The notes under the pieces: model-generated
What the model was told of the DNA's origin: nothing
What the model saw: only the letters and a program-made list of their open reading frames with translations
Databases searched by the model: none
Source of the DNA: an uncultured Planctomycetia bacterium
Lineage (GTDB): Bacteria > Omnitrophota > Gorgyraeia > 2-01-FULL-45-10
Length of the DNA: 64,000 nt
Assembly (NCBI GenBank): GCA_964352425.1
Contig: CAYGRZ010000001.1
Span: 64,672-128,671 of the forward strand
Direction of reading: 5' to 3'
Translations under genes and position numbers: made by a program
In this document: in pieces, positions 5,593 to 13,480 of the stretch
How the letters are laid out: each line of letters opens with the position of its first letter
Position numbering within the stretch: the stretch's first letter is position 1

Positions 5593-5666
5593 GCGAGCGT
5601 AGTTCAATGGTAGAATACTAGCTTCCCAAGCTAGATACGGGGGTTCGATTCCCCTCGCTCGCTCCA
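5593..5666 (+). tRNA. tRNA-Gly (anticodon CCC)
   Basis: Cloverleaf folds by hand: acceptor GCGAGCG/CGCTCGC, D-stem GTTC/GAAT, anticodon stem CTAGC/GCTAG with loop TTCCCAA, T-arm GGGGG-TTCGATT-CCCCT, 3' CCA encoded. Near-identical in pattern to E. coli glyU. Confidence 0.9.
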
Positions 5667-5681
5667 GTTTTACCGAAAGAG

Positions 5682-6428
5682 ATGAAGATGAAGGTAATTA
5701 TTATTATAGTGTCGGCCCTTGCGCTCGCCGGATGCGCGACGACACACCAGCGCACATACACCTGCGCTACGCCGGTGTATTCCCATGAATACGACTCGGT
5801 GAACCTCGCTCCGACTGTCGGGGGCCTCCAGCCGATGGCGCCTGCGCAAGTTCGTCATACCGTACGGCCCGGCGAGACGCTCTGGGGCATCTCGAAGGCA
5901 TATGATGTCGATCTCGACGACCTCGTGAAGGCTAACTCGATAAAGGATACAGGCTCGATCGAAAAAGGTCAGATCCTGGCCATACCCGGCAGGGCGCGGT
6001 CCGGGCCTGTAGCAAGGGCCGCCACGACCACCTATGCGCGGTCACGATCCGCGGTCTCTTTTGTCTGGCCGGTAAAGGGCGCTGTTCTGTCCCGTTTCGG
6101 ATCGACCGCCGACAAGGTCGTGAATAAAGGCATCGATATCAAAGCGAATGAAGGCTCAGGCGTTGCCGCCTCCCGGGAGGGGAAGGTCGTGTTTTGCGAT
6201 GAATATCTGAAAGGGTTCGGCAAGACCGTCATCATAGACCATATGGACGGCTACCAGACGGTCTACTCCTATAATTCTGATATTACCGTCAGGGTCGGCG
6301 ACACGGTCCGGCAGCGGGATGTGATCGCAAAGGTCGGTTCAAGCGGCCGCGCCCGGGTGTCGATGCTCCATTTCGAGATACGCAGGAACGGGGAGCCGCA
6401 GAACCCGGAGTTTTATCTGACGAAATAG
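5682..6428 (+). CDS. LysM-domain M23 metallopeptidase lipoprotein (NlpD-like)
   Basis: Signal peptide with lipobox LAGC; LysM (VRPGETLWGISKAYDVDLDDL); M23 motifs (KGIDIKA...IIDHMDGYQTVYSYN...HFEIRRNG). Confidence 0.85.
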   Translation: MKMKVIIIIVSALALAGCATTHQRTYTCATPVYSHEYDSVNLAPTVGGLQPMAPAQVRHTVRPGETLWGISKAYDVDLDDLVKANSIKDTGSIEKGQILAIPGRARSGPVARAATTTYARSRSAVSFVWPVKGAVLSRFGSTADKVVNKGIDIKANEGSGVAASREGKVVFCDEYLKGFGKTVIIDHMDGYQTVYSYNSDITVRVGDTVRQRDVIAKVGSSGRARVSMLHFEIRRNGEPQNPEFYLTK

Positions 6429-6567
6429 TAACGGTTGTACATCCTCCTTCGCCTGTGCATGTGATTGAGGGAGATTGGCTTCCGCCTTCGCCGTCACGCC
6501 TGGACCGGATGAGGCTTCGGCGGACAGGTCGGCGGATGATTTCACCGGAATAAATTATGAGGAAATC

Positions 6568-8199
6568 ATGTTTAGCGAACCGGTAGTGGGACAGGATTTT
6601 TTCGGCCGTGAAGAAGTGCTCGAGATACTGAATAAGAGGGTGCTCGCCCTGAAGGACGGCTACAGGCAGAACGTCGCGCTGACCGGCCAGAGCCTCGCCG
6701 GCAAATCATCGATCATCCTTCATTTCCTGCACACGATACAGGAAGAGGGCTTTATACCCATCTATGTGGAAGTGGTCAGGGAGCCGTTCCGGTCATTCGC
6801 GAACAAATTTATCGCGACGATGCTCTTCCACGCCATGCTGAAGAAGGGCGAACAGCCTGCCTCGGACCTGGCCTCCCTGCTGGAGACCGGCCAGGATGTG
6901 CTCCCGAAGACCTCATCCGCGATAAAGCAGGTGAGCGCCTATATCGAGCGCGGGGAATGCGAAACCGCGTATCAGTCGCTCCTCGAACTCACCTCGGTCC
7001 TGAAGGCCGAGCTCGGAACCCCGTGCATTGTCATACTGGACGAATTCGACAATCTCGAAGGCCTCGGCATAAAGAACCCGTTCCTGAGTTTCGGCAAGGT
7101 CATCATGGTCCAGAAGGACACGATGTATATAGTCTCGAGCTCCCGGAACCTTGCGATAAAGAAGATCATCTCCGAAAAGCTCTCGCTCCTTTTCGGGAAC
7201 TTCGAGGTCGTCAAGGTCGAAAATTACGGTATTAAGGTATCCTGCGATTTTCTCCATACAAGGCTCGGCGGGTTCGAAATCGATGAGTTTGCGAAGAAGT
7301 TCCTGATAGCCTTCACCGACGGCAACCCCTTCTACCTGAGCAGGATGGCGGGCCTGTTGAAAGAGACGGCTATCGGGCGCATGACGAGCCTGATAGACGC
7401 CGATATGGTTTCCGACGCGATACTCGAGCTCGTCTATAACTCGAACGGCACGATCCACCAGTATTTGATGAACTACATCCTCGAGCTGCTCGACACCAGG
7501 ACGAGGGACTACCATATAGCGATACTCGTGGCTATAGCCGGCGGCTGTAACAAGCATGCCGATATTGCCAGGCTCATCAGGACGACCCAGCGCGATGTGA
7601 TAGCCTCTCTCTCGCGCCTCTGCGAGCAGGGGCTGGTTTCCAAGAACGGCGTATTCTACGCGATTGACGATGTGATGCTCGAGTTCTGGCTCAAATACGT
7701 CTACCAGAGGAAGAAGGATCTCCTCGTCGACGGCGCGTTCGACAAGACGGCGCTCTTCAGGGAAGAGATCAAGGCCTATATGGCCTCGTTCGCGCAGGAA
7801 TACGGGATGAGCATCACCGCGCGTGTCGCCAGGCTTTTCAACCTGTTCTCGAACGAGCTCGTGCAGCTCGAATCGAAGAGCGCGAGGCTGCCGCACTTCA
7901 CCAAGGTCGAGGCGAAATCTTTTGCGGACGCTACGCACTACGTCGCGGCATCTTTCAGGGGGAATTTCTGGATAACGCAGGTCTTCGAGCGGGATGTGAA
8001 TGAAAATGACATCGTCTCATTCATACGGAACGTCAAGGGCCTGAACTGCACAATATCCAACAAGCTTTTAATATCGCTGAAGGGTATGGATGAGAACACA
8101 AAACTCCTTGCCAAGGAGCTGAAAATATCGATCTGGGACAGCCGCACCCTGAACAATCTGCTGAACCTCTACCGGATGAAAAGGATCATCATGCCGTGA
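6568..8199 (+). CDS. AAA+ ATPase (archaeal-ATPase/DUF234-type)
   Basis: Walker A GQSLAGKSS and Walker B IVILDEFDNL; the internal ATG at 6568 has a GAGG RBS, so the 31-aa N-terminal extension of ORF 6475 is rejected. Confidence 0.8.
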   Translation: MFSEPVVGQDFFGREEVLEILNKRVLALKDGYRQNVALTGQSLAGKSSIILHFLHTIQEEGFIPIYVEVVREPFRSFANKFIATMLFHAMLKKGEQPASDLASLLETGQDVLPKTSSAIKQVSAYIERGECETAYQSLLELTSVLKAELGTPCIVILDEFDNLEGLGIKNPFLSFGKVIMVQKDTMYIVSSSRNLAIKKIISEKLSLLFGNFEVVKVENYGIKVSCDFLHTRLGGFEIDEFAKKFLIAFTDGNPFYLSRMAGLLKETAIGRMTSLIDADMVSDAILELVYNSNGTIHQYLMNYILELLDTRTRDYHIAILVAIAGGCNKHADIARLIRTTQRDVIASLSRLCEQGLVSKNGVFYAIDDVMLEFWLKYVYQRKKDLLVDGAFDKTALFREEIKAYMASFAQEYGMSITARVARLFNLFSNELVQLESKSARLPHFTKVEAKSFADATHYVAASFRGNFWITQVFERDVNENDIVSFIRNVKGLNCTISNKLLISLKGMDENTKLLAKELKISIWDSRTLNNLLNLYRMKRIIMP

Positions 8200-8678
8200 A
8201 GATACTCGTCATTTCCGATACGCATATCCCGAGAGTGGCCCAGGACCTTCCTCAAAGCATCTATGATCAGATCGCGAAGGTCGATATGATCCTTCACGCC
8301 GGAGATTTTGTCGACGAAGACGTCCTGGTAAAATTGAAGAAGCTTAAAACGACGCATGCCGTCTATGGCAACATGGATTCGATCGTGCTTCGCCGCACGC
8401 TGAAGGCCAAGGAGGTCATTATGGCGGGCAAATTCAGGATAGGGTTGATACACGGTTACGGGGCGCCGCGCGATCTCTTAGATACGGTACGCTCGGAGTT
8501 CGGCACCGTTGACGCTATAGTCTTCGGCCATTCACATACGGCCGTGAGCACCATCAAGGACGGGATACTGTTCTTTAATCCGGGCAGCCCGACCGACACG
8601 ATATTCGCCGCCACAAATTCTTACGGCATCCTGGACGTGACCGACAAAAAGATAGAAGGCAGCATCGTCACATTATGA
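8196..8678 (+). CDS. YfcE/MJ0936-family metallophosphoesterase
   Basis: ISDTHIP...HAGDF...GHSH calcineurin-like motifs; 4-nt overlap with the upstream ATPase. Confidence 0.85.
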   Translation: MKILVISDTHIPRVAQDLPQSIYDQIAKVDMILHAGDFVDEDVLVKLKKLKTTHAVYGNMDSIVLRRTLKAKEVIMAGKFRIGLIHGYGAPRDLLDTVRSEFGTVDAIVFGHSHTAVSTIKDGILFFNPGSPTDTIFAATNSYGILDVTDKKIEGSIVTL

Positions 8679-9499
8679 GAAAAAGAGAGATCCCCGTATT
8701 TACAATCGAGGGCCAGACACTGCCGGAGGTATGGGAAAAAGCGGTCATAGCGACATGGAACGGCGGGGCCGATATCAAGACCGAATATGACAAGCCCGAT
8801 GACCCGGCGAGCAAGGATTCGACGATGATCATGGTCATCAACGATCCGATGAAAGAGCCCCGGATCCACCGCGCGTTCCCCGGAGGGCTTGAGGACCTCG
8901 AGGTCTACAGGCAGGAGGTCGTCTCGGGGATCCATGACCACTGGATTGCCCCGGAAGAGGGTAAGTGGACATACACCTACCACCAGCGGCTGGCGAACTT
9001 TCCGATCGAAGGCGAACATGTCGACCAGCTGGACTACATAATAAGGAAGCTCTCTGCCACACCGTATACGAGAAGGGCGCAGGGGATAACATGGAATCCG
9101 AAATGCGATCCGGTCACCGACGACCCGCCGTGCCTGCAAAGGATATGGTGCCGGCTCGTACAGCAGGATGACGGCTCTTACTCGCTCGACATGAACACCC
9201 ACTGGCGGTCACGTGACGCCTACAAGGCGAGCTTCATGAACATATTCGCGCTGACCGACCTCCAGAGGGCGATGGCCGGCGAAATATCGAAGAGATTGGG
9301 CCGGGTAGTTTCCGTCGGCAGGTACGTCGATATAAGCGACAGCTTCCATATCTACGGCAGCTACTTCGACGATTTCAAGAATTTCCTGAAGATGGCTACC
9401 GAGAGGACGTTCGATGAGAAGACGTGGCCGACCGAGTTTGCCGAGCCGTTCTTTGAGGACGCGAGGATAAAGCTCGAAAAAGAAAAGCAGGGAGTATAA
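8675..9499 (+). CDS. thymidylate synthase (ThyA)-family enzyme, divergent
   Basis: TS-fold motifs map onto ThyA: TRRAQGITWNP (RRxIxSAWNP), PPCLQRIWC (PCH Cys retained), NTHWRSRDAYKASFMNIFAL (QRSxDxxLGxPFNIA), DSFHIY. 4-nt overlap with the phosphoesterase. Confidence 0.75.
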   Translation: MRKREIPVFTIEGQTLPEVWEKAVIATWNGGADIKTEYDKPDDPASKDSTMIMVINDPMKEPRIHRAFPGGLEDLEVYRQEVVSGIHDHWIAPEEGKWTYTYHQRLANFPIEGEHVDQLDYIIRKLSATPYTRRAQGITWNPKCDPVTDDPPCLQRIWCRLVQQDDGSYSLDMNTHWRSRDAYKASFMNIFALTDLQRAMAGEISKRLGRVVSVGRYVDISDSFHIYGSYFDDFKNFLKMATERTFDEKTWPTEFAEPFFEDARIKLEKEKQGV

Positions 9500-9648
9500 T
9501 GAGTAAAGAACAAAGTACAGAGAACAGAGTCAAAAGTACAGCTAATTATCGTTTAGAATCTGTTCATTTGGCCTTGTCTGTTCTTTGTTCTTTTTGATAT
9601 GTTTGTACTTTGTATTTTGTGATTTGTACTTTAAACGAGGAGTTTAGT
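9500..9648. promoter_or_regulatory. AT-rich intergenic region with an imperfect inverted repeat and TTTGTACTTT direct repeats
   Basis: aaagaacaaagtacagagaacagag ... ctgttctttgttcttt inverted; TTTGTACTTTGTATTTTGTGATTTGTACTTT just upstream of the HIT-gene RBS. Confidence 0.45.
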
Positions 9649-10119
9649 ATGGATAAGCTATGGGCCCCGTGGAGGAGCAAATACATATATCTGCGCAAGA
9701 TTAAGGCCTGTATATTCTGCGGCGCCAAGTATGCCCGCGACCACAAGGCACGGTATATACTTGAGCGCTCAGGCCATTCGTTTTCGATGCTGAACCTGTA
9801 TCCTTACAACAACGGCCATGTGATGGTCGCGCCGTACCGGCACGTATCGAGCCTTGAACTCCTGTCTGAAGAAGAGCTCGCCGACCTGATACGGCTGGTG
9901 AACGCTGCGAAAAGAGAGATCGACAGGAAGATGAAGCCCCACGGGTACAACATCGGATGGAACCTGGGCAAGGTCGCCGGCGCGGGGTTTTCCGGCCATG
10001 TCCATGTGCATATAGTGCCGCGCTGGACCGGCGATACCAACTTCATACCGGTCATCGGCAACACGAAGGTTGTCTCGGAATCGCTCGACGCGATGTACGC
10101 TCTCCTCAAAAAGAGATAA
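9649..10119 (+). CDS. HIT-family protein (HxHxHxx; Ap4A-phosphorylase/GalT-like branch)
   Basis: HVHVHIVPRW histidine triad and an N-terminal CIFC motif; the ATG at 9649 is preceded by a GAGGAG RBS. Confidence 0.8.
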   Translation: MDKLWAPWRSKYIYLRKIKACIFCGAKYARDHKARYILERSGHSFSMLNLYPYNNGHVMVAPYRHVSSLELLSEEELADLIRLVNAAKREIDRKMKPHGYNIGWNLGKVAGAGFSGHVHVHIVPRWTGDTNFIPVIGNTKVVSESLDAMYALLKKR

Positions 10120-10123
10120 GGCC

Positions 10124-11275
10124 ATGCTGAAGAGAAGGGACCTCGAAAAGAAGGAAAGCCTCCTCGCCCCGTATGCGCAGAAGAGCCGCATGACGAAGGG
10201 AAGGGTCTACAAGGAACCTGAGCACGGCTACAGGTCATGTTACCAGCGTGACCGTGACCGGATCATCTATTCGACCGCGTTCCGCAGGCTTGAATACAAG
10301 ACGCAGGTCTTCGTGAACCACGAGGGCGATTATTACCGGACGCGGCTCACGCACACGCTCGAGGTCAGCCAGATAGCCCGCGCGATAGCGCGCGCGCTGA
10401 AACTGAACGAGGACCTTGTCGACGCGATAAGCCTCGCCCACGACCTCGGCCACACCCCATTCGGCCATTCGGGCGAAGATGCCTTGAACGAGATGATGAA
10501 ATCCCACGGCGGGTTCGAACATAACGCCCAGGGCCTGAGGGTCGTCGACATCCTTGAGCAGCGCTACCCGGATTTCCCCGGCCTCAATCTCACGCATGAG
10601 GTAAGGGAAGGCATCATACGGCACTCCACCGCATACGACCGTCCGCACCCTGTCGTGCCGTTCACTACGAAAGGTTCGCCGCTCCTGGAGATTCAGGTCG
10701 TCGATATCGCCGACGAGATCGCGTACGATAATCACGATCTTGACGACGGCATCACGAGCGGCCTTATCAAGGAATCTGACCTGCGGCATATTAAGTTGTG
10801 GGCCGACAAGAAGAGAGCGATCGAGAAGAAGTACCGCTCGATCAAGGACGAGATACGGAAGTATCAGATCATCCGCTCGCTGATAAACGAGCAGGTCACC
10901 GATGTCATCTTCCGGACCGAGGCGAACATCCGCAGGCGCCGGGTCCGGTCGGCGGCTGATGTGGCGAAGATACCCGAAAGGATCGTCACGTTCTCGGACA
11001 CTATGCGGCTCTTGCGCCTGCCGATGCGCGAATTTCTCATCAAGGGCCTCTACCAGCATTACCGGGTCGTCAGGATGGCCAACAAGGCTTACCGCTTCAT
11101 AGAGAGCCTGTTCAATATTTATCTCGATAAGCCGGAGCAGCTTCCGCCGGGGACCCAGTCGAGGCTGAAGATTGAGTCAAAGCACCGCGTGATATGCGAT
11201 TACATCGCCGGCATGACCGACCGCTATGCGCTGGACGAGTACAAGAAGTTCTTTGAGCCGTACGAGAGGGTGTAA
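10124..11275 (+). CDS. dgt: dGTP triphosphohydrolase (Dgt-family HD phosphohydrolase)
   Basis: YRTRLTHTLEVSQIARAIA...HDLGHTPFGH HD motif, Dgt-like N-terminus; starts 5 nt after the HIT stop. Confidence 0.85.
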   Translation: MLKRRDLEKKESLLAPYAQKSRMTKGRVYKEPEHGYRSCYQRDRDRIIYSTAFRRLEYKTQVFVNHEGDYYRTRLTHTLEVSQIARAIARALKLNEDLVDAISLAHDLGHTPFGHSGEDALNEMMKSHGGFEHNAQGLRVVDILEQRYPDFPGLNLTHEVREGIIRHSTAYDRPHPVVPFTTKGSPLLEIQVVDIADEIAYDNHDLDDGITSGLIKESDLRHIKLWADKKRAIEKKYRSIKDEIRKYQIIRSLINEQVTDVIFRTEANIRRRRVRSAADVAKIPERIVTFSDTMRLLRLPMREFLIKGLYQHYRVVRMANKAYRFIESLFNIYLDKPEQLPPGTQSRLKIESKHRVICDYIAGMTDRYALDEYKKFFEPYERV

Positions 11276-11405
11276 TTTTTCCGCTTTTATCAGGGCGTTA
11301 ACTTTTGGGCACTCGCTTTTATTAGTTGAGCAAGCCCTTGCGGCCTGGGGGGATGGGGGCACGCTAAAAGCTCCGCCGCTCGAGGAAGCAGAAATATTTG
11401 TGGTA

Positions 11406-11434
11406 GGGCAGGTGAGCGAAAAGCGAACCTGCCC
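11406..11434. repeat. hairpin-repeat family member (stem GGGCAGG/CCTGCCC, loop tgagcgaaaagcgaa)
   Basis: Same conserved loop family as the copies at 11615, 18267 and 36439. Confidence 0.5.
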
Positions 11435-11461
11435 GATGAGGGGCTTAGGGCGAGCAAATTT

Positions 11462-11650
11462 TTACGGGTGACGCGAGGGGGCCTTGAGAAGCGCACAAGC
11501 GAGCGCGGGATGGGGCAGTACAGACACCCGCCTGTCAGCATGTCACTTGTGAACCCCGCGCGAGCGCGGAGCATCGCAAAGGACACCGAGCGGCACCTCG
11601 ACAAGCTCGGTGCTCGCCCTGAGCGAAGTCGAAGGGCGGCAGGACCCGTA
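11462..11650. repeat. ~135 bp repeat module B, copy 2 (carries a ~45 bp hairpin insertion at 11596-11640)
   Basis: Aligns to the reverse complement of 3689-3822; the flanks ggcaggacccg..aaaattt match across the insertion. Confidence 0.7.
11615..11638. repeat. hairpin-repeat family member (stem CGCCC/GGGCG, loop tgagcgaagtcgaa)
   Basis: Conserved 14-nt loop with a covarying stem. Confidence 0.55.
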
Positions 11651-11713
11651 AAAATTTCCTGCGACCCTGGCCTGTTACTAACAAGAGCCAGGGCAGACAA
11701 GCGGAAGGCAGCC

Positions 11714-11860
11714 ATGAAGTTTCTGATCATTACGGTATTGGCGTTAATGCTGTCCGGGTGCTCCAGCATCCGGATCAAGGAAGGCGGGCTCGCCGTCGGT
11801 AAAGATACGACTGCGACTGTGGACGACGTGGGAGTGGCGAGGGTGACCAACCAGTTCTGA
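11714..11860 (+). CDS. small lipoprotein (48 aa, hypothetical)
   Basis: MKFLIITVLALMLSGCSS lipobox signal peptide; internal start of ORF 11468..11860, whose upstream part lies on the repeat. Confidence 0.45.
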   Translation: MKFLIITVLALMLSGCSSIRIKEGGLAVGKDTTATVDDVGVARVTNQF

Positions 11861-11950
11861 CCCCTGCCGGGCGTATATAGCCTTCACGAAAAAGGCGTCC
11901 AAATAGGCGTTGACACGGCTTAAGCGTTCGCCGTATAATCGTTTACCGGC

Positions 11951-13480
11951 ATGGAAGAGACAAAGAACCATACTTATCAGAGGGAACTGTTCGACAGGCT
12001 GAAGAAGAGCCCCAGCCTCAAGAAGGCCCAGGAGTGCTTCGGCTGTGTCATCAAGCCGGCCGCGTGGTGGATCGTCGAAAAGCCCAGCCCGAAATTCGCG
12101 GACGTGCAGAAGCTCATCTGCGGCAACTGCCCCTCGGTAAAGAGATCATCCCCCAGGCAACTGCGCCAATGCGTGAAAGAAGTCCTCGGGATGCTTGCCG
12201 GGGCCGCCGAAGAGAAGCGGCTGATCAAGTTCGACTGCCCTGAAGGCATGCACGGGTTTATATGCCCGGTCATTCAGGCAGATAAGATATTCGGCTACCT
12301 GGGCGCCTGCTACGCCAAGAAAGAGATCTCGCCGCAGGTGCTTGAGATTTTCTCAGCGTTCATCGCCACGATCGTCAAAGAGGTGCAGAAGGAGCTGGAG
12401 CTCTCAAAGCTGTATGAGACGCTTCGGCCGCGCGCGATAGCCCTCTCGACCGTTCACACCGTCCACCGCCTGATCAGCTCGACGCTGGACTTAAACGAGC
12501 TGCTGCCGCGCATCGCGAGGCTTTCGCTCCAGGTCATGAGGGCCAACCGCTGTTCGATAAAGCTCGTCGACTCGAAGCGCAAGGTCCTGCTGCCGAAAGT
12601 CACCGTCGACCTCAGGGAAAAGAACATCAGGCTGAAGAAGGTGAAGGTTGGCAGGTGGGCGCCGGGCAAGGCCGTCAAGTTCGGCAGGCCGATACGCGGC
12701 CGCGACTACCTGGCCACACCGCTCATCGACGAGGACGTGATCGGCGTCATAACATTGTATGACAAGATCGACAAGAAGCCGTTCAGCATATTCGACCAGG
12801 AGATCATGTCGACTATGACCGAGCAGGCGGTCATAGCGATAAAGAACGCCCAGCTGTACAAGGAGCAGGAGAAGCTGACGATGGGCACGATCAAGGCGCT
12901 GGCCAAGGTGCTCGATACGCGCGCGCCCGGGACGTACATACCGCGCGCCTCATTTATAAAGATCACCCTTGCGATCGGGCAGGAGCTGCACATGGACAGC
13001 GACAGCCTGAAGAGCCTCCAGTACGCTTCGATCCTGCACGATGCCGGCGAAATATTCGTGCCCGAGGCCGTTCTCGCCAAGCCGGCGAAACTGACCGGCG
13101 CGGAGTACGATATGGTCAAGGAGCACCCGGCCGCGGGAGTCGAGATAATCAAACACATGAAGGCGCTCAAATCCGCAACGCCTATCATCCTGTACCACCA
13201 TGAAAATTACGACGGCACCGGATATCCGAAAGGCCTGAAGAAGGACCAGATACCGCTCGGCGCCAGGATTATGGCCGCGGTCAGCGCATTCGAAGCGATG
13301 ATAACGATGAAACCTTACAGGGTGACGAAGACGCTCGATGAGGCGATCGATGAGATAAAGGCCAACGCCGGCACCCAGTTCGACCCGAAAGTGGTCGAGG
13401 TGTTCCTGAAAGTGACAAAGAAGAAGGATATAAGGGCATTGCTCGAGAAAGAATTGTATGGACCTAAACCGGCTGCTTAA
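11951..13480 (+). CDS. GAF-domain HD-GYP phosphodiesterase (c-di-GMP) with a Cys-rich N-terminus
   Basis: HD...HHENYDGTGYPKGL HD-GYP signature with a GAF region upstream. Confidence 0.85.
   Translation: MEETKNHTYQRELFDRLKKSPSLKKAQECFGCVIKPAAWWIVEKPSPKFADVQKLICGNCPSVKRSSPRQLRQCVKEVLGMLAGAAEEKRLIKFDCPEGMHGFICPVIQADKIFGYLGACYAKKEISPQVLEIFSAFIATIVKEVQKELELSKLYETLRPRAIALSTVHTVHRLISSTLDLNELLPRIARLSLQVMRANRCSIKLVDSKRKVLLPKVTVDLREKNIRLKKVKVGRWAPGKAVKFGRPIRGRDYLATPLIDEDVIGVITLYDKIDKKPFSIFDQEIMSTMTEQAVIAIKNAQLYKEQEKLTMGTIKALAKVLDTRAPGTYIPRASFIKITLAIGQELHMDSDSLKSLQYASILHDAGEIFVPEAVLAKPAKLTGAEYDMVKEHPAAGVEIIKHMKALKSATPIILYHHENYDGTGYPKGLKKDQIPLGARIMAAVSAFEAMITMKPYRVTKTLDEAIDEIKANAGTQFDPKVVEVFLKVTKKKDIRALLEKELYGPKPAA

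What the first reader, a model, noticed from the sequence alone, without database searches (positions are those of the whole stretch)
6568..11275. Coupled AAA-ATPase / metallophosphoesterase / divergent ThyA-fold triad, then HIT protein and dGTPase: candidate nucleotide-modification or nucleotide-depletion module
ATPase (6568-8199), YfcE-like phosphoesterase (8196-8678) and a thymidylate-synthase-fold enzyme (8675-9499) overlap by 4 nt each. After a 150-bp AT-rich palindromic spacer come a HIT hydrolase and a Dgt-family dGTP triphosphohydrolase, 5 nt apart. Every gene acts on nucleotides. Dgt homologues and pyrimidine-modifying TS-fold enzymes are both known components of anti-phage nucleotide-depletion/modification strategies. 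A housekeeping role (dNTP pool sanitation) is equally possible. The ATPase-phosphoesterase-TS arrangement is not a standard operon.
Basis: inference. Interest (0 to 1): 0.6.

Follow-up and report, generated by a model that had tools for sequence, protein, structure and literature searches.

The report
Omnitrophota housekeeping thymidylate synthase operon
The five genes are real and tightly packed, but they look like an ordinary, vertically inherited nucleotide-housekeeping operon of Omnitrophota bacteria built around an archaeal-type thymidylate synthase, not an anti-phage system.

Summary
The two 4-nt overlaps, the 149-bp AT-rich spacer and the domain assignments are confirmed.

The defence or nucleotide-modification reading is not supported:
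- The thymidylate-synthase-like (TS) protein keeps every dUMP-binding and catalytic residue of ThyA. It is closest to the methanogen-type thymidylate synthase model. It is 63-95% identical in every relative that carries the same gene block.
- At least 596 bacterial species carry it. In three Elusimicrobia it sits in a guaB-guaA-TS-purC operon. Several homologues are interrupted by inteins.
- The dGTPase passes NCBI's housekeeping equivalog cut-off and fails the anti-phage dGTPase model.
- PADLOC has nothing for the ATPase or the TS, and GC content is genome-typical.
- The order PfkB, M23 peptidase, ATPase, phosphoesterase, TS, HIT, dGTPase, GAF/HD, UvrD-nuclease is kept in all 25 related loci carrying the ATPase, 12 of them named Omnitrophota. 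It holds even where the ATPase is only 28-40% identical. It appears in none of 61 loci from other phyla.

This is core-genome synteny, not a variable island. What remains open is the role of the Omnitrophota-specific 543-aa AAA+/winged-helix ATPase and its coupled YfcE-like phosphoesterase. The spacer is a private insertion, absent from the closest relative.

The parts
5593..5666 (+). tRNA-Gly(CCC), immediately upstream of the gene block
   Evidence: Rfam tRNA at 71 bits. ARAGORN gives anticodon ccc.
5682..6428 (+). LysM + M23 peptidase. It is always the gene directly upstream of the ATPase in related loci.
   Evidence: Pfam LysM and Peptidase_M23. It is found upstream of the ATPase in all 24 of the 25 related ATPase-carrying loci that extend that far, with gaps of -4 to 111 nt.
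6568..8199 (+). 543-aa P-loop AAA+ ATPase with a winged-helix domain and an unassigned C-terminal alpha/beta domain. The orthologous group appears specific to Omnitrophota.
   Evidence: AAA_16 at 41 bits, above its cut-off of 32.6. ATPase_2 at 26 bits, below 33.2. HTH_27 at residues 316-360. Walker A (G40, G45, K46, S48) and Walker B (D158, E159) are invariant in 29 orthologues. Of the best 120 of 953 homologues, 110 are exactly 543 aa (range 542-574). All those named are Omnitrophota. AF2 model pLDDT is 77. The best PDB fold matches are the archaeal ATPases 2qen and 2fna, then RuvB. No Pfam hit for residues 408-543 even at E<=10.
8196..8678 (+). YfcE/MJ0936-type metallophosphoesterase, 160 aa. 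Its start overlaps the ATPase stop by 4 nt.
   Evidence: TIGR00040 at 118.8 bits (cut-off 56.25) and Metallophos_2 at E=3e-34. The metal-binding motifs DTH, GD, GNMD and GHSH are visible in the translation. The GTGA overlap is seen.
8675..9499 (+). Archaeal/methanogen-type thymidylate synthase (ThyA fold), 274 aa. Its start overlaps the MPE stop by 4 nt.
   Evidence: PF00303 at 47.2 bits. TIGR03283 (methanogen type) at 117.1 bits over the full model length, below the cut-off of 174.55. R134, R178, S179 and N189 are invariant, and R133, C153, D181 and H225 are at least 90% conserved, across 25 diverse members. AF2 pLDDT is 95.9. The top Foldseek PDB matches are ThyA of L. casei, E. faecalis and B. 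subtilis at TM about 0.6.
9500..9648 (.). 149-bp AT-rich, partly palindromic spacer. It is a private insertion that also supplies the HIT gene's ribosome-binding site (GAGGAG).
   Evidence: 32% GC. Inverted repeats. It is absent from the closest relative L086, where the TS stop and HIT start are 1 nt apart. No other copy in the window or the fetched loci. RNA folding z-score is only -2.15.
9649..10119 (+). HIT-family nucleotide hydrolase/phosphorylase, 156 aa, related to Ap4A phosphorylase / ATP adenylyltransferase.
   Evidence: PF01230 at 46.8 bits. NF052622 at 141.7 bits over the full length, below the cut-off of 290. The HVHVHIVPR motif is visible in the translation.
10124..11275 (+). Dgt-type dGTP triphosphohydrolase, 383 aa, housekeeping clade.
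   Evidence: NF002326 equivalog at 515.7 bits, above the cut-off of 390. Anti-phage dGTPase NF041026 at 254.9 bits, below 400. HD plus HD_assoc.
11282..11307 (+). Weak terminator-like hairpin plus T-rich tail just after the dGTPase stop. Probable end of the transcription unit.
   Evidence: Consensus scan. The number of such sites in the region is no more than in shuffles, so this is only suggestive.

Best explanation
This is a vertically inherited, core-genome operon of an Omnitrophota bacterium. Its identifiable enzymes do ordinary deoxynucleotide housekeeping.

- The TS-fold protein is most likely the cell's thymidylate synthase, of the archaeal/methanogen-like ThyA type. By inference, Cys153 attacks C6 of dUMP. 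dUMP is held by Arg133/Arg134 (from the partner subunit), Arg178 and Ser179, and read by Asn189. A methylene-tetrahydropterin bound near Asp181 donates the one-carbon unit and the hydride.
- The Dgt-type enzyme trims dGTP.
- The HIT enzyme clears dinucleoside polyphosphates or related nucleotide adducts.

These three are co-expressed, probably translationally coupled, with a lineage-specific AAA+/winged-helix ATPase and a small YfcE-type phosphodiesterase. The role of that pair is unknown. My best guess is a DNA-binding, ATP-driven regulator or DNA-transaction factor with an accessory phosphodiesterase.

Shown here: gene content, catalytic residues, fold, conservation and synteny. Inferred: the enzymatic reactions, co-transcription, and the role of the ATPase/MPE pair.
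For: TS identity:
- ThyA Pfam and methanogen-type NCBIfam hits.
- Conserved catalytic set: R134, R178, S179 and N189 invariant; R133, C153, D181 and H225 at least 90% conserved.
- AF2 model at pLDDT 95.9 with ThyA as best PDB fold.

Housekeeping status:
- 62-95% identity across the 119 other listed homologues, many named Omnitrophota.
- At least 596 GTDB species carry it, across Omnitrophota, Aminicenantes, Elusimicrobia, Firestonebacteria, KSB1 and others.
- It lies in guaB-guaA-TS-purC(-purS-purL) in Elusimicrobia loci L056, L062 and L063, and directly after pyrB in L024.
- Inteins interrupt seven homologues. From general knowledge, inteins favour essential replication and nucleotide enzymes.
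- NCBI and JGI already name the family thymidylate synthase.

Not an island:
- PfkB-M23-ATPase-MPE-TS-HIT-dGTPase-GAF/HD-UvrD is kept in all 25 related loci carrying the ATPase, even at 28-40% ATPase identity.
- GC of each gene is 0.52-0.57 against a window mean of 0.55.
- The rest of the window, read by eye from the translations, is core metabolism: thiamine, NAD synthase, GS/GOGAT, Kdp, Mrp-like.

dGTPase: it passes the housekeeping equivalog and fails the anti-phage model.

Tight packing:
- ATPase-to-MPE and MPE-to-TS gaps are -4 to +5 nt in most loci.
- TS-to-HIT is usually -14 to +25 nt.
Against: - No genome-wide check was possible for a second thymidylate synthase (canonical ThyA or ThyX) in this organism, so 'the only TS' is not shown.
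- The protein scores below the methanogen-type equivalog cut-off (117 vs 174.55).
- From my memory of the TIGR03283 description and Krone et al. 1994 (listed among the references seen), the full dTMP-forming reaction has never been reconstituted for that family.
- Sequence cannot separate a methyl-transferring from a hydroxymethyl-transferring TS-fold enzyme. MilA CMP hydroxymethylase is an equally good fold match.
- PADLOC's generic dGTPase model does hit the dGTPase at 345 bits.
- The tight, lineage-wide coupling of ATPase and MPE to TS is unexplained by a pure housekeeping story.
Confidence: 0.8

Rival explanations
1. The ATPase, phosphoesterase and TS form a true functional module specific to Omnitrophota. 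For example, the AAA+/winged-helix protein could regulate or assemble the thymidylate/dNTP enzymes. Alternatively, the YfcE-like phosphoesterase could supply or recycle a substrate such as dUMP or a pterin phosphate for the TS.
For: - 4-nt start/stop overlaps or gaps of a few nt between ATPase, MPE and TS in most of the 25 related loci, kept while the ATPase diverges to 28% identity.
- The ATPase orthologous group appears restricted to the lineage that has the arrangement. Its length is nearly fixed at 543 aa, with invariant Walker motifs.
Against: - The same depth of conservation holds for functionally unrelated neighbours: PfkB kinase, M23 peptidase, GAF/HD and UvrD-nuclease. Synteny is therefore not specific to the triad.
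- In 61 loci from other phyla the same TS works without any ATPase, MPE, HIT or dGTPase within 6 kb.
- No fusion of TS with an ATPase or MPE was seen among 150 family representatives.
Confidence: 0.15
2. The block is an anti-phage nucleotide-depletion or DNA-modification system. The dGTPase would deplete dGTP, the TS-fold enzyme would make a modified pyrimidine, and the ATPase would act as sensor.
For: - The PADLOC dGTPase model hits the dGTPase at 345 bits, and a ThsC-type HIT model hits the HIT protein at E=1e-11.
- The ATPase has faint STAND-like similarities: nSTAND1 at E=0.0017 and Apaf-1/Avs3 low in the fold list.
- The same TS type occurs on 30 IMG/VR viral contigs.
Against: - The dGTPase fails the anti-phage NCBIfam model (254.9 < 400) and passes the housekeeping one.
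- PADLOC has nothing for the ATPase or TS.
- The ATPase-MPE-TS core is present at one fixed place in all 25 related loci that carry the ATPase, flanked by core genes. Only HIT or dGTPase is missing or displaced in a few of them. No integrase, transposase or compositional shift is seen.
- The TS sits in purine/pyrimidine operons in other phyla.
- The viral copies lack the neighbours.
Confidence: 0.04
3. The TS-fold enzyme is not a thymidylate synthase. It would be a dUMP (or other pyrimidine nucleotide) hydroxymethylase or alternative C5-transferase, with dTMP made by an unseen ThyX or ThyA elsewhere in the genome.
For: - It falls below the equivalog cut-offs of all thymidylate synthase NCBIfam models.
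- Its N- and C-terminal regions do not align to PF00303: only residues 85-241 match.
- Trp80 of the canonical I-W-D-x-W folate motif is His here (alignment).
- MilA hydroxymethylase is as close in fold as ThyA.
Against: - Asn189, the uracil-specifying residue, is invariant, and the full dUMP-binding set is conserved.
- The family is as widespread and conserved as an essential enzyme, with inteins and purine-operon contexts.
- Archaeal relatives are treated as the sole ThyA of methanogens and Asgard archaea in the literature (PMC9931769, PMC9012536).
Confidence: 0.05

Closest known systems
Archaeal / methanogen-type thymidylate synthase (NCBIfam TIGR03283; archaeal ThyA clade discussed in PMC9931769 and PMC9012536)
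   Same: - Full-length match to the 201-position model (residues 10-232, E=7e-34).
- Same distinctive N-terminal region, which canonical ThyA lacks.
- Same catalytic Cys, Arg pair, RSxD and Asn.
   Different: - Bacterial, and about 70 residues longer than the model.
- Scores 117 bits, below the 174.55 equivalog cut-off.
- Belongs to a large bacterial sister group (at least 596 species) that has not been characterised biochemically.
Canonical ThyA (PF00303; E. coli, L. casei and B. subtilis enzymes)
   Same: - TS fold (Foldseek probability 1.0).
- dUMP-binding and catalytic residues, and the pterin-contacting Asp.
   Different: - Only 15-20% identity, TM about 0.6.
- N-terminal ~85 and C-terminal ~30 residues are not alignable.
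- Trp80 equivalent is His.
- The C-terminus differs. In canonical ThyA it closes over the folate, so cofactor handling may differ.
Housekeeping Dgt-family dGTP triphosphohydrolase (NF002326) versus the anti-phage dGTPase (NF041026; Tal et al. 2022, from memory)
   Same: HD plus HD_assoc architecture. Passes the NF002326 equivalog cut-off.
   Different: Does not reach the anti-phage model's cut-off. Fixed core-genome location rather than a defence island.
Archaeal ATPase family PF01637 (P. abyssi PABY2304, PDB 2qen; S. solfataricus SSO1545, PDB 2fna)
   Same: AAA+ core followed by a winged-helix domain. These are the best structural matches.
   Different: - Sequence score is below the Pfam cut-off (26 vs 33.2).
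- It has an extra ~135-residue C-terminal alpha/beta domain with no family match.
- The orthologous group appears restricted to Omnitrophota.
- No function is known for either.
YfcE / MJ0936 metallophosphoesterases (TIGR00040)
   Same: Passes the subfamily cut-off. All metal-binding motifs are present. Same size.
   Different: Nothing distinctive in the protein itself. Only its fixed coupling to the ATPase and TS genes is unusual.

Membership tests
Thymidylate synthase ThyA superfamily (PF00303) | Pfam PF00303 hit above the gathering score | tested here: met
   47.2 bits against 24.3, but only residues 85-241 align.
Thymidylate synthase ThyA superfamily (PF00303) | Catalytic Cys nucleophile and dUMP-binding set (Arg-Arg, Arg-Ser-x-Asp, Asn, His) | tested here: met
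   R134, R178, S179 and N189 are invariant, and R133, C153, D181 and H225 are at least 90% conserved, in 25 diverse members. The HMMER alignment to B. subtilis ThyA places them on the known motifs.
Thymidylate synthase ThyA superfamily (PF00303) | TS fold | tested here: met
   AF2 pLDDT 95.9. Foldseek against PDB gives top hits of ThyA, E about 4e-14, TM about 0.6.
Thymidylate synthase ThyA superfamily (PF00303) | Converts dUMP plus methylene-tetrahydropterin to dTMP, and is the cell's dTMP source | not testable with these tools
   This needs an enzyme assay or complementation. A whole-genome check for thyX or a canonical thyA was not possible because only the window and +/-6-8 kb loci were available.
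Methanogen-type thymidylate synthase equivalog (TIGR03283) | Score at or above the curated cut-off of 174.55 bits | tested here: not met
   117.1 bits with full-length coverage. It is a relative, not a member of the equivalog.
Anti-phage dGTPase (NF041026 / PADLOC dGTPase) | Score at or above the NCBIfam 'exception' model cut-off of 400 bits | tested here: not met
   254.9 bits. The housekeeping equivalog NF002326 scores 515.7, above its cut-off of 390.
Anti-phage dGTPase (NF041026 / PADLOC dGTPase) | PADLOC model match | tested here: inconclusive
   PDLC02374 at 345 bits. No cut-off is given, and the model is expected to hit the whole Dgt family.
Defence island / mobile defence system | Variable, patchy genomic context with other defence or mobility genes | tested here: not met
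   Same nine-gene order in all 25 related loci carrying the ATPase. Core metabolic neighbours. GC equals the genome mean. No PADLOC hit for the ATPase or TS.
YfcE-family phosphodiesterase (TIGR00040) | Score at or above 56.25 bits and an intact metal-binding motif set | tested here: met
   118.8 bits. Motifs DTH, GD, GNMD and GHSH are in the translation.
ATP adenylyltransferase / Ap4A phosphorylase HIT (NF052622) | Score at or above 290 bits | tested here: not met
   141.7 bits over the full length. The generic HIT domain PF01230 is met at 46.8 bits.
Archaeal ATPase family (PF01637, ATPase_2) | Pfam hit above the gathering score of 33.2 | tested here: not met
   26 bits. AAA_16 (PF13191) is met at 41 bits against 32.6. 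The best fold matches are the PF01637 members 2qen and 2fna, but at low TM (0.27/0.39).

The most novel reading that the evidence does not exclude
The Omnitrophota-specific AAA+/winged-helix ATPase and its coupled YfcE-like phosphoesterase are obligate partners of the archaeal-type thymidylate synthase. For instance, they could control or feed a thymidylate pathway that uses a non-folate pterin. That would make this a lineage-specific variant of dTMP synthesis rather than a chance neighbourhood.
Probability: 0.12. Interest if true: 0.5.

Novelty: new member of a known kind. Interest (0 to 1): 0.22.

Why it matters
Mostly as a correction. A gene cluster in which every gene acts on nucleotides can look like a defence system. 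Here, conservation, context and curated model cut-offs show it is core metabolism.

Two modest points of interest remain:
- A large bacterial sister group of the poorly characterised archaeal ThyA (at least 596 species, some with inteins, and also on large viral contigs) has no biochemical or structural study. Its cofactor is unknown.
- Omnitrophota carry a lineage-specific, nearly fixed-length AAA+/winged-helix ATPase with no known function, always coupled to a small phosphoesterase and the thymidylate synthase.

Tried and rejected
- Defence reading: PADLOC, PHROGs and NCBIfam scans gave nothing specific beyond generic family hits.
- Spacer as a repeated mobile element or known RNA: there is no second copy in the window or in 116 fetched loci. 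Rfam gave only a sub-threshold chance hit, SpF43 at 27 bits against 70. Folding is only mildly better than shuffles, z = -2.15.
- C-terminal domain of the ATPase: no Pfam family even at E<=10. By eye it resembles a restriction-endonuclease-like domain, and the VC1899 (1xmx) fold hit hints the same. I could not test this and do not claim it.
- A broad 25-sequence alignment was too divergent for the genome scan. A narrower one worked.
- My first automatic ORF clustering of the non-Omnitrophota loci was confounded by spurious long ORFs in high-GC genomes. I replaced it with direct inspection and targeted tblastn.
- pyrB adjacency turned out to hold in only one Aminicenantes locus, so I do not generalise it. 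Other Aminicenantes neighbours are miscellaneous: transglutaminase-like, acyl-CoA synthetase, SpoU, RadC, NYN.
- Literature searches found no description of the triad or of an Omnitrophota thymidylate synthase.

Full report
**Observation**

- The ATPase reading frame ends '...ATG CCG TGA' at 8199, and the phosphoesterase starts at the GTG at 8196.
- The phosphoesterase ends '...TTA TGA' at 8678, and the TS-like gene starts at the ATG at 8675.
- HIT runs 9649-10119. The dGTPase runs 10124-11275, 4 nt after the HIT stop.
- The ATG at 6568 gives a 543-aa ATPase. Of the 120 best homologues, 110 are exactly 543 aa. The longer TTG start at 6475 used in the NCBI record (574 aa) is probably too long.
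- The spacer 9500-9648 is 149 bp at 32% GC, against 55% for the window. It has 20-nt arms that are 90% complementary.

**What the proteins are**

- ATPase. Pfam and NCBIfam give AAA_16 plus a winged helix.
- Phosphoesterase. YfcE family, 118.8 bits against 56.25.
- TS-like protein. PF00303 at 47.2 bits. Its best NCBIfam match is the methanogen-type thymidylate synthase TIGR03283: 117 bits with full-length coverage, but below the 174.55 cut-off.
- HIT. A HIT protein related to Ap4A phosphorylase, 141.7 bits against a cut-off of 290.
- dGTPase. It passes the housekeeping equivalog NF002326 (515.7 bits against 390). It fails the anti-phage dGTPase model NF041026 (254.9 against 400).
- PADLOC has no hit for the ATPase or the TS. 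It gives only family-level hits for the HIT and dGTPase.

**The TS-fold enzyme**

- In an alignment of 25 members at 37-58% identity to the window protein, R134, R178, S179 and N189 are invariant. R133, C153, D181 and H225 are at least 90% conserved.
- The HMMER alignment to B. subtilis ThyA places these on known ThyA features: the dUMP-phosphate Arg pair, the catalytic Cys, the R-S-x-D motif, the uracil-specifying Asn and the H-x-Y motif.
- The AlphaFold model is very confident, at pLDDT 95.9. Its best solved-structure matches are ThyA enzymes at only 15-20% identity and TM about 0.6. MilA hydroxymethylase is equally close.
- No member of this subfamily appears among the solved structures.

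**Distribution and context**

- The organism is an Omnitrophota bacterium, judging by the source names.
- The other 119 listed homologues are 72-95% identical.
- The family has 221 clusters at 50% identity with E<=1e-30.
- At least 596 GTDB species carry it, among them Omnitrophota, Aminicenantes, Elusimicrobia, Firestonebacteria, KSB1, Aerophobetes, Armatimonadota, Latescibacterota and Actinomycetota.

I searched 86 fetched loci with the nine window proteins by tblastn.
- All 25 loci that carry the ATPase also carry M23-ATPase-MPE-TS in the same order and on the same strand.
- Among these are all 11 Omnitrophota-labelled GTDB loci and L001, whose TS protein NCBI names Omnitrophota. There are also 8 TPA bins coarsely labelled 'Planctomycetia', and five metagenome contigs.
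- Most of the 25 also have PfkB upstream and HIT, dGTPase, GAF/HD and a UvrD-PD-(D/E)XK helicase-nuclease downstream.
- The order holds where the ATPase has diverged to 28-40% identity while the TS stays at 63-71% (L015, L016, L020, L028, L030, L031, L034, L049, L054).
- ATPase-to-MPE and MPE-to-TS gaps are -4 to +5 nt in most loci.
- HIT or dGTPase is occasionally missing or displaced by about 1 kb (L015, L016, L020, L031). In L028 guaA follows HIT.
- None of the 61 loci from other phyla has the ATPase, MPE or dGTPase within 6 kb of the TS. The only HIT match is a weak one on viral contig L098.

In other phyla the TS sits among other genes:
- between guaB-guaA and purC-purS-purL in three Elusimicrobia;
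- directly after pyrB in one Aminicenantes chromosome;
- otherwise among miscellaneous housekeeping genes.

Two further observations:
- Seven homologues are split by inteins. In several the split falls at about residue 154, next to the catalytic Cys. From general knowledge, this is typical of essential replication and nucleotide enzymes.
- One homologue is fused to an RNase H domain.

**Interpretation**

- These results point to a housekeeping thymidylate synthase of an archaeal-like type, embedded in a lineage-specific core operon.
- The block has genome-typical GC.
- By eye, the remaining 50 kb of the window encodes core metabolism with no mobility genes: thiamine genes, dehydroquinate synthase, NAD synthase, Amt/P-II, GS/GOGAT, Kdp and Mrp-like subunits.
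- The synteny extends to functionally unrelated genes. It therefore reflects shared ancestry at least as much as function.
- The defence or modification reading thus has essentially no positive support.
- The literature treats archaeal ThyA as the thymidylate synthase of methanogens and Asgard archaea, while noting that its cofactor and biochemistry are poorly known (PMC9931769, PMC9012536).
- I found no paper on the Omnitrophota arrangement.

**The ATPase and phosphoesterase**

- The ATPase has 953 detectable homologues. Where the best 120 are named, they are Omnitrophota.
- Walker A and Walker B residues are invariant in 29 orthologues.
- The AF2 model (pLDDT 77) shows an AAA+ core, a helical and winged-helix region, and a well-predicted C-terminal alpha/beta domain.
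- The best PDB matches are the uncharacterised archaeal ATPases PABY2304 and SSO1545, then RuvB, ORC and Apaf-1-type AAA+/STAND proteins, all at low TM.
- The C-terminal 136 residues match no Pfam family.
- The phosphoesterase has all metal-binding motifs.
- The function of both is unknown. A functional link to the TS is possible but not shown, and I rate it at about 0.15.

**The spacer**

- In the closest relative (L086; TS 95% and ATPase 94% identical) the TS stop and HIT start are 1 nt apart.
- The alignment shows a clean insertion of about 148 bp in the window, which carries its own GAGGAG ribosome-binding site.
- In most relatives the TS and HIT genes overlap or lie within 25 nt.
- The insert has no other copy in the window or in the fetched loci. 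It has no credible Rfam match. It folds only modestly better than shuffles.
- It is a private insertion of unknown origin, not a conserved regulatory feature.

**Verdict**

The housekeeping alternative is strongly favoured over defence. Novelty is limited to a new, lineage-specific arrangement around a known but biochemically neglected enzyme family. The main caveat is that I could not check the whole genome for a second thymidylate synthase, nor test the chemistry.

Noticed in passing
window 9500-9648: The 149-bp spacer (32% GC) is an insertion absent from the closest relative, L086. It brings its own Shine-Dalgarno sequence for the HIT gene. No other copy was found in the window or in 116 fetched loci, and its origin is unknown.
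   Followed up: yes
TS homologues P0124, P0132, P0137, P0143, P0152, P0191, P0213; P0129: Seven TS-family proteins carry inteins (Hint, Intein_splicing, LAGLIDADG). There are at least two insertion sites, one adjacent to the catalytic Cys. P0129 is an RNase H (RVT_3)-TS fusion.
   Followed up: partly
loci L087-L116 (IMG/VR viral contigs): Thirty viral contigs encode the same TS type at 28-58% identity, without the ATPase, MPE or dGTPase neighbours. Four of them are 298-461 kb long.
   Followed up: partly
window 5593-5666: tRNA-Gly(CCC) lies 15 nt upstream of the LysM/M23 peptidase gene that heads the conserved block.
   Followed up: no
window 11910-11939: A perfect sigma-70 consensus (TTGACA, 18 nt, TATAAT) lies 12 nt upstream of the GAF/HD-domain gene (11951-13480). 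This suggests a separate transcription unit starts there.
   Followed up: no
window 11711-11860 and 11276-11710: A conserved 49-aa lipoprotein-like gene (MKFLIITVLALMLSGC...) is homologous to small ORFs in L086 and L002. It is hidden inside a longer spurious ORF. The ~435 bp between the dGTPase and this gene has no counterpart in the closest relative.
   Followed up: partly
window 6475-6567: The public protein record for the ATPase (P0271, 574 aa) starts at the TTG at 6475. Of the best 120 homologues, 110 are exactly 543 aa, which fits the ATG at 6568. The deposited start is probably 31 codons too long.
   Followed up: yes
window 7786-8199 (ATPase residues ~407-543): A confidently predicted C-terminal alpha/beta domain has no Pfam match. 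By eye it resembles a restriction-endonuclease-like (Mrr/NERD-type) domain, and a weak fold hit to VC1899 (1xmx) points the same way. This is untested.
   Followed up: partly
locus L028 7292-8818: In one marine Omnitrophota genome, guaA (GMP synthase) follows HIT in place of the dGTPase. This echoes the guaA-TS linkage seen in Elusimicrobia.
   Followed up: no
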